The notes: a model not told the origin generated them from the letters alone. 64,000 bases of DNA from a virus (IMGVR_UViG_3300037067_019204:1-64000), one strand, 5' to 3'. Numbered from the stretch's first letter, positions 11,915 through 37,165 are shown. Made by a program: numbers and translations.

Positions 11915-11959
11915 AAAAAACAAACAATAAAAAAACAAATAATCTGGATCGGACTTCTA

Positions 11960-12324
11960 CTCTCATTACATACGCCTATATAAGTTGCAACTTGTCGGCT
12001 ACAACAGACTAATCAGGTGTGGGCCACCTCTCATTACATACGCCTGTATAAGTTGCAACCTTATCATTTAAGAATCTTAAAACAGAGGTTCTTACTCTCA
12101 TTACATACGCCTGTATAAGTTGCAACCCTGTGGAAAAACCAGCGGGTGGAAAAGTGACCGCCTCTCATTACATACGCCTGTATAAGTTGCAACTGTAGAT
12201 AACCCACGTTCTCCGTACCAACAAAATCTCTCATTACATACGCCTGTATAAGTTGCAACTACACAGGATTTTTAGCACAAATGGGTATGATTCTCTCATT
12301 ACATACGCCTGTATAAGTTGCAAC
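11960..12324 (-). CRISPR. CRISPR array, 6 x 32-nt repeats GTTGCAACTTATACAGGCGTATGTAATGAGAG, 5 spacers of 33-36 nt
   Basis: Repeats start at 11960, 12028, 12095, 12162, 12228, 12293; the 11960 copy has one substitution (trailer end). Confidence 0.97.
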
Positions 12325-12382
12325 TGCCAGCGAATAAACACTGGAAATTCTAGTAGTTAACAAGAGTTTATCGCCAACCATC

Positions 12383-12485
12383 CTTATGTATCATATTAAG
12401 CGTAGTATCAGTGAGTGGGGTTAGCGAAGACCAATTGGGCTTCATTTTTGCTAACTCCCTCACCATTTTGCTGTGAGAACAGCAA
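12383..12485 (-). ncRNA. Predicted tracrRNA
   Basis: 5' hairpin TTGCTG-TTCTCA-CAGCAA whose loop pairs with repeat 3' end TGAGAG; long GTGAG..CTCAC stem; anti-repeat TAC-TACGCTT...ATAAG. Confidence 0.7.
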
Positions 12486-34825: not shown

Positions 34826-34860
34826 GATATTTAACCCCCTATATTTTATAAATAAAAAAA

Positions 34861-34932
34861 GAGGTAAAAAGTTTAAATCGTTGTTTTTTAGCTAATTTAG
34901 TTATAGTTGATAAACAATTTAATCCGTACCTC
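34861..34932 (-). ncRNA. Y-RNA-like gene 6 (compact), downstream of Ro60
   Basis: GAGGTA-CGGA-TTAAATTGT-TTATC...ACGATTTAA-ACTTTT-TACCTC. Confidence 0.7.
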
Positions 34933-34943
34933 TTTTTTTGTTT

Positions 34944-36560
34944 TTATAGTTTTCCCATACTAAATTGACTAATTATTTGTGGTGCGGCACTATCAAATCC
35001 TACTATATCCAATGAATTTGGATCTTGAGGATCTGCTATAGAAAATTCAGACCCAACCATTCCAACAACAATCATTTTAGCATCTTTAATCCTCTGGTTT
35101 CTATACTCATGCAAGGCTTGCATAGGATGCATCTTCCCAAACCAAGTTTCATTATCTGTATATGTAACAAATACATCAAAATCAAGTTTCCTATCTTTTG
35201 CCCATATCATTGGAACAGAGCAATCAGTTCCAGCAAAAGGAAGATTTCTCATTTTTTGAAGAGTTTGTCCCAATGTCATATCTGGAGTTATGTCCAAATT
35301 AACAAAATTTGTAGAAAAACCCATTACTTCATAATTTTGTTCTTTTCTTGCTGTAACCATAGCCATACAAGCACTAGCTTCACGACAAGTTAATATCCCC
35401 TGTGCTCCAGAAATATAACTATTTGTCATTGAACCAGATACATCTAGCCCAAGAAGATAACGTTTTCCTGTAGATTCAACATTTTTAAAACTTAAATAAA
35501 ACATTTCTTCAAGAGCATCCACAATTTTTTGAACAGGAACCCAAGAAAGTTTTCCTTTAATTCCATGACCCATTGAATATGTCTTCATGGCAATCAAGAT
35601 ATTCAAAGGATGCATTCTACTTTTTTCTACATGAGAAAGATCAGTTAATTTTTTTGTAACTAAATTAATCTCATCAAACTTACCTTTTGAAAGAATTTCT
35701 AAAGAGCTTAGTTTTCCGAGATTACGAACCAAAGCTCCTAAAGGCAAATCATCCAAAGCAGAATTCCATACTTTTGCACGATTCTTTAACTCTGTTGGCC
35801 ATGCTTCATGAGGAATCTTATATTCTTTTATAAGCTTGCAAGCATCTTTTTCAGAAGCGTTTTTAAGTTCTTCTACAGCTTTCAAAAGATTAAATCCTTC
35901 AGAAATCTCACCTTTAACTGCATATTTAAACAATGAATTATGCTTATCAGACACAGGTTTTACGTGCGCAGAACGAAGCACATCACGATGTGTCCATTGG
36001 TTATTTGAACCTTCTACAGTACGACCTTGATACTTGATCATTTGATATTCAAGTTTTTCTGGGGACATGCTATACCAATTAGCTATAGCACTACGCACTG
36101 AACGACCCCAACTTCTCATTGAATCCAAGTAATGCACAAACATAAACAAGTGTGTTCCTATACGGCATACTTTAGGAAGTGCTTGAACAATTTCTTTTTT
36201 AACATCAAAATCTTTGCATTGAGTAAACAATACTGCTAACAAATAGATTGCTTGATCATTTTTAGGTGCACGGCCCTCATCAGAAATTTTAACTATTGTT
36301 TCAAGAACACGCTTTGGGTTTTCATTAATACAAGCAATACAGTTTTCTATATTAGCTTTAGTCAAATCATGTTCTGAAACATAATATGTTCCACCCTCTG
36401 AAGAAAGGATAAGAAATCTTTCCAATCTTTTCCATTTGTCAATAATGAAGGTATAACCACCTGCATTATTCATAGCCATTTCTTTTTCACGACCCGGAAT
36501 GGGCTTATATTGAGGTGTTCTCTTGTTATTAATTTGATGTTTTGTGTAATTGATAGCCAT
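34944..36560 (-). CDS. rsr: Ro60/Rsr RNA-binding protein (TROVE + vWA)
   Basis: NNAGGY...LERFLILSSEGGTYY; WTHRDVLRSAH; ALVRNLG; MIDAS DVSGS; TDNET; GFDS. Confidence 0.95.
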   Translation of the reverse strand: MAINYTKHQINNKRTPQYKPIPGREKEMAMNNAGGYTFIIDKWKRLERFLILSSEGGTYYVSEHDLTKANIENCIACINENPKRVLETIVKISDEGRAPKNDQAIYLLAVLFTQCKDFDVKKEIVQALPKVCRIGTHLFMFVHYLDSMRSWGRSVRSAIANWYSMSPEKLEYQMIKYQGRTVEGSNNQWTHRDVLRSAHVKPVSDKHNSLFKYAVKGEISEGFNLLKAVEELKNASEKDACKLIKEYKIPHEAWPTELKNRAKVWNSALDDLPLGALVRNLGKLSSLEILSKGKFDEINLVTKKLTDLSHVEKSRMHPLNILIAMKTYSMGHGIKGKLSWVPVQKIVDALEEMFYLSFKNVESTGKRYLLGLDVSGSMTNSYISGAQGILTCREASACMAMVTARKEQNYEVMGFSTNFVNLDITPDMTLGQTLQKMRNLPFAGTDCSVPMIWAKDRKLDFDVFVTYTDNETWFGKMHPMQALHEYRNQRIKDAKMIVVGMVGSEFSIADPQDPNSLDIVGFDSAAPQIISQFSMGKL

Positions 36561-36580
36561 AGCTAATCTCCTTTTATAAA

Positions 36581-36649
36581 TTTAGGTCAAGTAGTTGTAA
36601 TGGAATTGCATCACCCAAATGTAGATAACCCATCACGTCCGTACCTAAA
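36581..36649 (-). ncRNA. Y-RNA-like gene 5 (compact)
   Basis: TTTAGGTACGGA-CGTGATGG-GTTATC...CCATTAC-AACTA-CTTGACCTAAA. Confidence 0.8.
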
Positions 36650-36655
36650 AACCTA

Positions 36656-36782
36656 TGGCCAAAGAGTTGGACTCGAACCAACGACCCACAGTTTCCAATG
36701 ATAACCCTATTCTCCGTGCATTTCTGCCAAGTTGTTGAAAAGGGAAATACAACTGCTGCTCTACCAACTGAGCTATCTTTGA
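36656..36782 (-). ncRNA. Y-RNA-like gene 4: tRNA body with Ro-binding helix in place of anticodon loop
   Basis: Canonical acceptor, D and T arms; insert ...CTTGGCA-GAAA-TGCACGGA-GAATAGGG-TTATC...; acceptor followed by CCA. Confidence 0.8.
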
Positions 36783-36790
36783 CATGCATA

Positions 36791-36870
36791 TTTGGTAAAT
36801 TTTTTTTGATCAGAAAGTTCTTTTCAGAACAACCAATTTCATGTTGATAACTGATCAAATCCGTACCAAA
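36791..36870 (-). ncRNA. Y-RNA-like gene 3 (compact)
   Basis: TTTGGTACGGA-TTTGATCAG-TTATC...CTGATCAAA...TTTACCAAA. Confidence 0.75.
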
Positions 36871-36873
36871 ATT

Positions 36874-36997
36874 TTCCGTGGGTTGGACTTGAACCAACGA
36901 CCCCTTCCTTACAATGGATAATCCTCTTTCATTCGTACATTACTGTCAAGTGGTGAAAAAGGAACTTTAAGTGCTCTACCAATTGAGCTACCACGGA
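36874..36997 (-). ncRNA. Y-RNA-like gene 2: tRNA body with Ro-binding helix in place of anticodon loop
   Basis: TCCGTGG/CCACGGA acceptor, canonical D and T arms; insert ...CTTGACA-GTAA-TGTACGAA-TGAAAGAGGA-TTATC... Confidence 0.8.
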
Positions 36998-37007
36998 ATA
37001 TATACTA

Positions 37008-37072
37008 CAGGTAAAATTTATACTATTCGGGGGGTATCTCTTGACTTGATAACCGAATAGAATCCGTACCTG
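37008..37072 (-). ncRNA. Y-RNA-like gene 1 (compact)
   Basis: CAGGTACGGA-TTCTATTCGG-TTATC...CCGAATAG...TTTACCTG; TTGACA box about 35 nt upstream. Confidence 0.75.
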
Positions 37073-37131
37073 ATATTTTCATATAATATAAATATTAAAT
37101 ACTTGTCAACAAAAAAATTATCAATAAAACA

Positions 37132-37165
37132 AAAAAAGCGGTGGATTTTAAGGCCCACCGCTTTT
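37132..37165 (-). terminator. Intrinsic terminator
   Basis: AGCGGTGG...CCACCGC-TTTTTTT. Confidence 0.75.

What the first reader, a model, noticed from the sequence alone, without database searches (positions are those of the whole stretch)
34861..37072. Phage Ro60 operon with six Y-RNA-like genes
Seen: five elements upstream and one downstream of the TROVE gene share (G/T)G(T/C)ACG(G/A)A, a variable 8-10-nt strand, then TTATC. Each variable strand has its own complement, which is covariation among paralogues. Known: Y RNAs have a GGUCCGA/CUUGAC bulged Ro-binding helix followed by a stem and UUAUC, and are encoded beside Ro60 genes. Six diversified copies, alternating compact and tRNA-fused, with a GGUACGGA variant is unusual. 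Inference: one Ro60 ring is retargeted by interchangeable RNA adaptors.
Basis: partly seen in the sequence, partly recalled or inferred. Interest (0 to 1): 0.85.

Follow-up and report, generated by a model that had tools for sequence, protein, structure and literature searches.

The report
Phage Ro60 with six Y RNAs
A large uncultured phage encodes the RNA-surveillance protein Ro60 flanked by six partner "Y RNA" genes, and two of them are complete tRNA-shaped molecules carrying the Ro60-docking helix as an extra arm, a widespread layout I did not find described in the papers I could search.

Summary
On the minus strand, a 538-aa Ro60 gene (TROVE + vWA) is preceded by five small RNA genes and followed by one. 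All six share a bulged GGUACGGA/(C)UUGACC-type helix, a private second helix and UUAUC.

Four are compact Y RNAs built like metazoan Y and nematode sbRNAs. Two are 124-125-nt RNAs with true tRNA ends (7-bp acceptor, D and T arms). In these the Y helix is closed by a GNRA loop, which is the opposite topology to published YrlA.

Covariance models built from these copies recover both forms beside Ro60, almost always on its strand, in dozens of viral, metagenomic and bacterial MAG loci, with strong covariation. In relatives the Y arm sits between the D arm and an anticodon-like hairpin at the spacing of a class I tRNA. CCA is often encoded at the 3' end.

Arrays of 5-8 copies occur elsewhere, so six copies and the GGUACGGA spelling are clade traits, not oddities.

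Most likely reading: one transcript, cut by tRNA-processing enzymes, supplies Ro60 with several adaptor RNAs. Binding, expression and function are untested.

This scan has already noted a tRNA-ended Y RNA on other DNA (e1-5486589).

The parts
37134..37165 (-). Intrinsic terminator of the upstream unit; marks the 5' boundary of the Ro60/Y RNA unit
   Evidence: 12-bp stem with 6 G-C pairs followed by a T run
37081..37109 (-). Putative promoter: TTGACA (37109-37104), 17 nt, TTATAT (37086-37081). It would start transcription about at the first G of Y1
   Evidence: Read from the sequence. The same TTGACA-N17-TTATAT is present in L082. The consensus scan did not list it because the -10 hexamer is off-consensus. 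Inferred.
37010..37070 (-). Y1, compact Y RNA (61 nt)
   Evidence: R1 58.4 bits; fold z = -2.1; orthologue L082:565-623
36874..36997 (-). tY2, tRNA-ended Y RNA (124 nt). It has a 7-bp acceptor stem, D arm, a Y arm (private helix, then CUUGACA-GUAA-UGUACGAA), UUAUC, a short hairpin with loop AUUGUAA, a 5-nt variable loop, T arm and discriminator A
   Evidence: Rfam tRNA 48.3 bits; R2 133.6 bits; the fold gives acceptor, D, Y arm, small hairpin and T arm; not called by ARAGORN when intact; called as tRNA, most often UGU, after in-silico removal of the Y arm
36794..36867 (-). Y3, compact Y RNA (74 nt)
   Evidence: R1 65.2 bits; Rfam RF01656 25.8 bits, E 0.023; orthologue L082:764-838
36658..36782 (-). 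tY4, tRNA-ended Y RNA (125 nt). Here the Y arm (CUUGGCA-GAAA-UGCACGGA) sits on a 5-bp anticodon stem (GCAGU/ACUGU) in place of a clean anticodon loop
   Evidence: Rfam tRNA 44.2 bits; R2 122.2 bits; U-A to C-G compensation in the docking helix relative to tY2; orthologue L082:850-978
36585..36645 (-). Y5, compact Y RNA (61 nt). It ends 11 nt before the Ro60 ribosome-binding site
   Evidence: R1 71.1 bits; Rfam RF01656 24.7 bits; orthologues L082:990-1050 and L002:2419-2474
34944..36560 (-). Ro60 gene, 538 aa (TROVE ring plus vWA domain with DxSxS metal site); AAGGAG at 36573-36568
   Evidence: Pfam; PDB 9nen, 2nvo, 1yvp; D373, S375 and S377 invariant in 33 homologues
34854..34930 (-). Y6, compact Y RNA (34930-34863). 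Its terminal helix extends by 3 bp and runs into U7 (34860-34854); probable terminator of the unit
   Evidence: R1 37.1 bits; downstream copies are also present in L082:2707-2778 and L002:4137-4197, and two in L083; U run read

Best explanation
This is a Ro60 ribonucleoprotein operon of a large (over 161 kb) low-GC phage.

One promoter probably drives a precursor carrying Y1, tY2, Y3, tY4, Y5, the Ro60 mRNA and Y6. The two tRNA-shaped members supply the cutting signals. Host RNase P would cut at their 5' ends, and RNase Z or exonucleases at their 3' ends. That would free the interleaved compact Y RNAs.

All six carry the same Ro60-docking module: a bulged helix of the metazoan Y RNA type, followed by a helix of private sequence and UUAUC. 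So all six should compete for, or share, the one Ro60 ring. The private helices keep neighbouring copies from mispairing.

The distal parts differ. They are small loops or hairpins in the compact forms and a whole tRNA body with a free acceptor end in tY2 and tY4. These would connect Ro60 to different partners: nucleases such as PNPase for the compact forms, and tRNA-recognising enzymes for the tRNA forms.

Shown here: the gene identities, the anatomy, conservation and covariation, and the association with Ro60. Inferred: co-transcription, processing, Ro60 binding and the adaptor role.
For: Ro60 identity.

Shared module, closely parallel to the Rfam sbRNA consensus (GGUCCGG..GGGUUAUC..CACCAACUUGACCG).

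Compact model R1: 50 hits in 661 kb, 49 on the Ro60 strand, most of them within about 1 kb of the gene. In 42 aligned copies 94.9% of cells pair against 70% after shuffling, and 8 of 8 private-helix pairs covary.

tRNA-ended model R2: 29 aligned copies, 93.9% paired, 29 of 32 pairs with double changes, acceptor stem 100% paired. The docking helix is capped by 3-16 nt in 26 of 29. A further 42 copies all have 7 of 7 acceptor pairs.

The same gene order occurs in L082 (88% identical Ro60) and L002 (68%).

tRNA-like processing is plausible. Spacers between members are only 6-12 nt. CCA is encoded within 1 nt of the predicted 3' end in 20 of 67 relatives (P about 1e-14). M. smegmatis YrlA is cut by RNase P and receives CCA, and its two Y RNAs come from one precursor (PMC4201824).

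Tether model and a phage precedent with two Yrl RNAs and host PNPase: PMC12135203.
Against: There are no expression, processing or binding data for this phage, and its host is unknown.

The promoter is off-consensus and was not listed by the scan. The tY4 fold is no better than shuffled sequence (z = 0.17), so its support is comparative only.

The covariation counts were made on alignments fitted to my own models. An independent MAFFT/RNAalifold run recovered only the acceptor, D and T stems and 3 bp of the private helix.

No partner of the distal modules can be named. The 161-kb record has RtcB but no CCA-adding enzyme.
Confidence: 0.75

Rival explanations
1. tY2 and tY4 (and their relatives) are working tRNAs that are charged and decode, and merely carry a Ro60-docking extra arm. 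Ro60 would then escort or protect phage tRNAs.
For: In 37 of 67 relatives a hairpin with a 7-nt loop C/U-U-NNN-A-A follows UUA (2.1 expected from shuffles). After correcting a one-base offset in my script, it lies 10 nt before the T stem in 29 of 35, as in a class I tRNA. ARAGORN calls a tRNA in 63 of 67 once the arm is removed in silico. CCA is often encoded.
Against: Discriminator bases do not match the identity rules I recalled for the apparent anticodons (hand check on the list). The anticodon stem has only 3-4 Watson-Crick pairs, and positions 27/28 are usually mismatched. tY4 and its orthologues lack a clean anticodon loop. The tY bodies resemble each other, not the phage's own tRNA-Thr or tRNA-Pro. 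The phage already has UGU and UGG tRNAs. A 45-nt arm with a 60-kDa protein on it is unlikely to fit a ribosome (inference).
Confidence: 0.1
2. Some copies act mainly in cis. Y5 would be a Ro60-binding leader that lets Ro60 repress its own translation, and Y6 would be a terminator, rather than being free adaptor RNAs.
For: Y5 ends 11 nt before the AAGGAG of Ro60. A compact copy ends 25-65 nt before the Ro60 start in many loci (coordinates). The Y6 helix runs into U7.
Against: Compact copies also occur far from the start codon and downstream of the gene. The same module is carried by RNAs with tRNA ends that must be cut out. This reading does not exclude the main one.
Confidence: 0.1
3. The tRNA-fused copies are tRNA genes disrupted by a mobile or intron-like Y element. 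They would be either dead genes, or precursors from which the arm is excised to give a tRNA plus a compact Y RNA.
For: The arm lies at a defined tRNA position, and the remainder looks like a tRNA. Compact and tRNA-ended forms are circular permutations of one another.
Against: More than 70 copies keep every helix by compensatory change and always sit beside Ro60 on its strand. D and T arm sequences are nearly invariant, as in YrlA. No bulge-helix-bulge or group I intron features were seen. Rfam reports none in the region.
Confidence: 0.04

Closest known systems
YrlA, the tRNA-like Y RNA of bacteria and mycobacteriophages (Rfam RF02553; Chen et al. 2014, PMC4201824; Wang et al. 2018, bioRxiv 10.1101/312249)
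   Same: It is encoded beside Ro60. It combines a Ro60-docking stem with a tRNA-like body whose D and T arms are highly conserved. Several Y RNAs come from one precursor.
   Different: YrlA has its ends in the docking stem and a loop-closed acceptor stem with no free CCA end, so it is a permuted tRNA. tY2 and tY4 have tRNA ends and a loop-closed docking helix. The YrlA model gives no hit in the window at E up to 10. In L206 its sub-threshold hits straddle two adjacent tRNA-ended copies. L050 shows the true YrlA order inside the same kind of array.
Metazoan Y RNAs and nematode stem-bulge RNAs (Rfam RF01656)
   Same: The compact copies share the bulged GGUCCGA/CUUGAC-type helix, a second helix, and GGGUUAUC. 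They also share the CA-rich bulge before CUUGACC (consensus). Bacterial copies in L170 even pass the family's gathering score.
   Different: The window copies score 24.7-25.8 bits against a threshold of 38. They are phage-encoded, polycistronic and bacterial-type in transcription. The bulged base is A in GGUACGGA.
Thermus phage phiLo Ro60 with Yrl1 and Yrl2 (PMC12135203)
   Same: A phage Ro60 with partner RNAs just upstream. Binding to Ro60 and to host PNPase was shown there.
   Different: Two simple RNAs there; six here, two of them tRNA-shaped.
[quoted passage not shown]
   Same: The product also has an open acceptor stem with a CCA end attached to a Ro60-docking stem.
   Different: There the open end arises by nicking a closed RNA into two pieces. 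Here it is built into a single chain.

Membership tests
Ro60 / TROVE protein | TROVE HEAT-repeat ring plus C-terminal vWA domain with a DxSxS metal site | tested here: met
   Pfam TROVE 3.5e-35 and vWA_Ro60 1.8e-65. Full-length matches to 9nen, 2nvo and 1yvp. D373, S375 and S377 invariant.
Y RNA (Ro60-associated RNA) | Encoded next to Ro60 on the same strand | tested here: met
   All six lie within 510 nt of the ORF on its strand. 49 of 50 R1 hits elsewhere are on the Ro60 strand.
Y RNA (Ro60-associated RNA) | Conserved bulged helix of the GGUCCGA/UUGACC type | tested here: met
   GGUACGGA with (C)UUGACC or UUUACC, one bulged base. The third pair covaries U-A, G-C and G-U.
Y RNA (Ro60-associated RNA) | Physical binding to Ro60 | not testable with these tools
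   Needs a pull-down or gel shift.
Y RNA (Ro60-associated RNA) | Match to a curated Rfam Y RNA family at its gathering score | tested here: not met
   RF01656 scores 25.8 and 24.7 bits against a threshold of 38. No Y_RNA or YrlA hit at E up to 10.
YrlA (RF02553) | tRNA-like domain with conserved D and T arms | tested here: met
   tY2 and tY4 are scored as tRNA over model positions 1-71. U8, A14, G18G19 and the GUUCRA T loop are present.
YrlA (RF02553) | RNA ends in the Ro60-binding stem; acceptor stem closed by a loop, no free CCA end | tested here: not met
   The reverse holds. The acceptor stem is open and the docking helix is closed by GUAA or GAAA.
tRNA (RF00005) | Cloverleaf with 7-bp acceptor stem, D arm and T arm | tested here: met
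   48.3 and 44.2 bits against a threshold of 29.
tRNA (RF00005) | 5-bp anticodon stem with a 7-nt loop; length about 72-95 nt; called by a tRNA finder | tested here: not met
   124-125 nt and not called by ARAGORN. tY2 has a 3-bp stem with loop AUUGUAA. tY4 has no clean loop.

The most novel reading that the evidence does not exclude
tRNA-ended Y RNAs are a widespread, undescribed class: complete, CCA-ended, anticodon-bearing tRNA bodies with a Ro60-docking arm inserted between the D arm and the anticodon arm. They would tie Ro60 directly to tRNA biology, for example as baits or sensors for anticodon nucleases, or as handles that bring tRNA repair or decay enzymes to Ro60. They would also be the form from which permuted YrlA arose by tandem duplication.
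Probability: 0.2. Interest if true: 0.9.

Novelty: new variant of a known kind. Interest (0 to 1): 0.7.

Why it matters
The role of the tRNA-like half of bacterial Y RNAs is unknown. The published structure stresses that it lacks a free CCA end (10.1101/312249).

Here, and in dozens of phage and bacterial Ro60 loci, there is a version with real tRNA ends. It often has an encoded CCA and an anticodon-like arm at exact tRNA spacing. That makes concrete tests possible: is it processed, CCA-tailed, charged, or cut by anticodon nucleases, and what does Ro60 do when bound to it?

It also suggests a simple route (tandem copies read out of register) from this form to YrlA. Finally, it shows that phages can carry whole arrays of Y RNAs punctuated by tRNA-like processing signals.

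Tried and rejected
I used pattern scans with an alignment instead. A single-protein viral scan found nothing.

Cultured actinophage Ro60 loci (Dandelion, Sixama, Beuffert, BearBQ) gave no strong hit with either model. The tRNA-ended form is therefore not what is already annotated there.

Cognate charging: the discriminators do not fit the identity rules I recalled for the apparent anticodons (hand check output, not a formal test).

Origin from the phage's own tRNA-Thr or tRNA-Pro: rejected, the bodies differ.

RNAalifold on a plain MAFFT alignment recovered only part of the structure, because MAFFT misaligns the Y arm.

False tRNA-ended hits that span two YrlA copies do occur (L050:1660-1803, 46.5 bits). 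I excluded them by requiring paired acceptor ends and a capped helix.

The loose regex census has a background of about one hit per locus on the wrong strand. It is only a rough copy count.

The Sim et al. 2020 review and Burroughs & Aravind 2016 are not held. I therefore could not rule out an earlier mention of this topology. Four full-text searches aimed at the Y RNA topology found none.

I noted that apparent anticodons include several known nuclease targets and that serine-type loops dominate the compact forms. The numbers are too small to test.

Full report
**Setting.** The window is the first 64 kb of a 161,311-bp IMG/VR virus record, estimated 65% complete. It is AT-rich. It carries 20 ordinary tRNA genes on the minus strand and a major head protein gene.

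The ORF at 36560-34944 (minus strand, 538 aa) is Ro60:
- Pfam vWA_Ro60 1.8e-65 and TROVE 3.5e-35.
- Full-length matches to a Ro60 chain (9nen) and to frog Ro60 and Deinococcus Rsr structures, 1e-106 to 5e-113.
- The DxSxS metal site is invariant in 33 homologues.

GenBank phage Ro60 proteins are at most 42% identical. Metagenomic homologues reach 88% and 68%.

**Observation.** Read on the minus strand, the order is:
1. terminator of the upstream unit (37165-37134)
2. TTGACA-N17-TTATAT
3. Y1 (37070-37010)
4. tY2 (36997-36874)
5. Y3 (36867-36794)
6. tY4 (36782-36658)
7. Y5 (36645-36585)
8. AAGGAG, then Ro60
9. Y6 (34930-34863), followed by U7

GGTACGGA occurs 5 times against 0.26 expected.

Five of the six fold better than shuffled sequence (z = -2.1 to -2.7). 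tY4 does not (z = 0.17).

Rfam scores tY2 and tY4 as tRNA with 58-62-nt inserts. It gives Y3 and Y5 sub-threshold hits to the nematode Y-RNA homologue family. That family's consensus shows the same GGUCCGG, GGGUUAUC and CACCAACUUGACCG blocks. ARAGORN does not call tY2 or tY4.

**Anatomy.**
- Compact copies: 5' GGUACGGA, a private 8-10-nt strand, UUAUC, a 19-44-nt distal part, the private complement, an A/C-rich bulge, then (C)UUGACC or UUUACC at the 3' end.
- tY2 and tY4: the order is permuted. It runs acceptor 5' strand, D arm, linker, private strand, bulge, CUUGACA or CUUGGCA, a GUAA or GAAA loop, UGUACGAA or UGCACGGA, private complement, UUAUC, then variable loop, T arm and acceptor 3' strand.

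The tRNA ends are therefore open and the docking helix is capped. Published YrlA is the reverse: ends in the docking stem, acceptor stem closed, no free CCA end (PMC4201824; 10.1101/312249).

**Comparative test.** I built a model of the compact form (R1) and one of the tRNA-ended form (R2). Each was built from six copies from the window, L002, L003 and L082.

*R1 (compact form):*
- It gave 50 hits in 661 kb of Ro60 loci. 49 were on the Ro60 strand, and most lay within about 1 kb of the gene. It gave 29 more in the other metagenomic loci.
- In 42 aligned copies 94.9% of cells pair against 70% after shuffling. All eight private-helix pairs show double changes. The third docking pair switches between U-A, G-C and G-U.

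*R2 (tRNA-ended form):*
- It found long (about 120-157-nt) hits next to Ro60 in about 24 of the first 100 sources, 13 of 61 further loci, and many bacterial MAG loci. By their record titles the MAGs are Chloroflexota, Armatimonadota, Myxococcota and Halobacteroidaceae, with weaker hits in Verrucomicrobiota.
- In 29 aligned copies 93.9% of cells pair, 29 of 32 pairs show double changes, and the acceptor stem pairs in every sequence.
- The docking helix is capped by 3-16 nt in 26 of 29.
- 42 further copies all have 7 of 7 acceptor pairs.

*Caveats and controls:*
- These alignments were fitted to my models. A plain MAFFT/RNAalifold run recovers the acceptor, D and T stems and part of the private helix only.
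- Cultured actinophage Ro60 loci give no strong hits.
- In this phage's 161 kb the six copies are the only Y RNAs found by either model.

**Relation to YrlA.** L050 carries the classical YrlA order (docking 5' strand, UUAUC, T arm, capped acceptor, D arm, docking 3' strand) in the same kind of array. Rfam's YrlA model hits it weakly. In L206 the YrlA hits straddle two neighbouring tRNA-ended copies.

The two forms are circular permutations of each other. Tandem tRNA-ended copies read out of register give YrlA, which suggests an evolutionary route (inference).

**An anticodon-like arm.** This is drawn from 67 tRNA-ended copies in all loci.
- In 37 of 67, UUA(Y)C starts a hairpin with at least 3 bp and a 7-nt loop C/U-U-NNN-A-A. 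Shuffles give a mean of 2.1 and a maximum of 6.
- The loop-closing pair covaries: A-U 20, G-C 9, C-G 3, U-A 3.
- The script reported 11 nt between the loop and the T stem in 29 of 35. My T-stem start was set one base too far 3', so the true distance is 10 nt, as in a class I tRNA.
- After in-silico removal of the Y arm, ARAGORN calls a tRNA in 63 of 67, against 5 of 67 when intact.

The Y arm is therefore an extra arm between the D arm and the anticodon arm. tY2 fits this pattern (loop AUUGUAA). In tY4 and its orthologues the arm sits on a 5-bp anticodon stem and the loop is lost.

Thirteen of 41 compact copies also carry such a hairpin (0.9 expected).

CCA is encoded within one base of the predicted 3' end in 20 of 67 (P about 1e-14). 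It is not clearly encoded in tY2 or tY4.

Apparent anticodons are diverse. The discriminators do not match the identity rules I recalled for them (hand check). The tY bodies resemble each other rather than the phage's own tRNA-Thr or tRNA-Pro. Decoding is therefore unlikely.

**Copy number.**
- L082 has the same six genes and L002 has five.
- L050 has about six.
- L170, a bacterial MAG, has about seven in alternating order.
- A loose motif count gives 3.2 per locus on the Ro60 strand against 1.0 on the other strand, with arrays up to about eight.

Six is above what is in print (two in phiLo, PMC12135203; at least two each in Salmonella, M. smegmatis and D. radiodurans, PMC4201824). It is ordinary for this uncultured diversity.

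**Mechanism.** See the best explanation. It rests on four points:
- the published tether and gate role of Y RNAs;
- the 6-12-nt spacers between members;
- the enrichment of encoded CCA.

The phage also encodes RtcB about 100 kb away, but no CCA-adding enzyme in the part held.

**Literature.** Four full-text searches aimed at the Y RNA topology and reading of the key papers found no description of a tRNA-ended Y RNA. Two relevant papers are not held. This scan noted the same topology before, in another virus (e1-5486589).

Noticed in passing
window 11950-12400 (minus strand); spacer about 12226-12190: CRISPR-like array with a 32-nt repeat. One spacer reads like the 5' half of a compact Y RNA (GGTACGGA + GAACGTGGG + TTATCTACA), close to Y5 and to L003:2129 but identical to neither.
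   Followed up: partly
window 34825-34397 (minus strand): A NADAR-domain gene (1.7e-30) lies directly downstream of Y6, followed by a PcfJ-like gene (34390-32867). NADAR proteins are, from my own knowledge, linked to reversal of nucleic-acid ADP-ribosylation, so this may be a counter-defence neighbour.
   Followed up: no
G000:C1:137020-138075 (outside the window): The phage encodes an RtcB RNA ligase (9.5e-63) about 100 kb from Ro60. No CCA-adding enzyme was found in the 161 kb held.
   Followed up: partly
L050:1500-2160: A related viral locus has about six Y RNAs in a row. Two of them have the classical YrlA (permuted tRNA) topology where the window has tRNA-ended ones.
   Followed up: partly
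L170:1070-2460 (Chthonomonadaceae MAG): A bacterial Ro60 locus with about seven alternating compact and tRNA-ended Y RNAs. Two compact copies exceed the gathering score of the nematode sbRNA family RF01656 (42.8 and 40.7 against 38).
   Followed up: partly
L003:5270-5618: A tmRNA gene (100.8 bits) lies about 1.1 kb downstream of Ro60 in a 205-kb relative. In L002 and L084, Ro60 sits inside tRNA gene clusters.
   Followed up: no
compact Y RNAs of related loci (alignment A6): Of 13 compact copies with an anticodon-like hairpin, 8 have serine-type triplets (UGA, CGA, GCU; loops such as CUUGAAA and CUGCUAA). Unexplained; possibly a structural motif.
   Followed up: no
window 36585-36560 and many related loci: The last compact Y RNA ends 25-65 nt before the Ro60 start codon in many loci. 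This would allow Ro60 to regulate its own translation.
   Followed up: no
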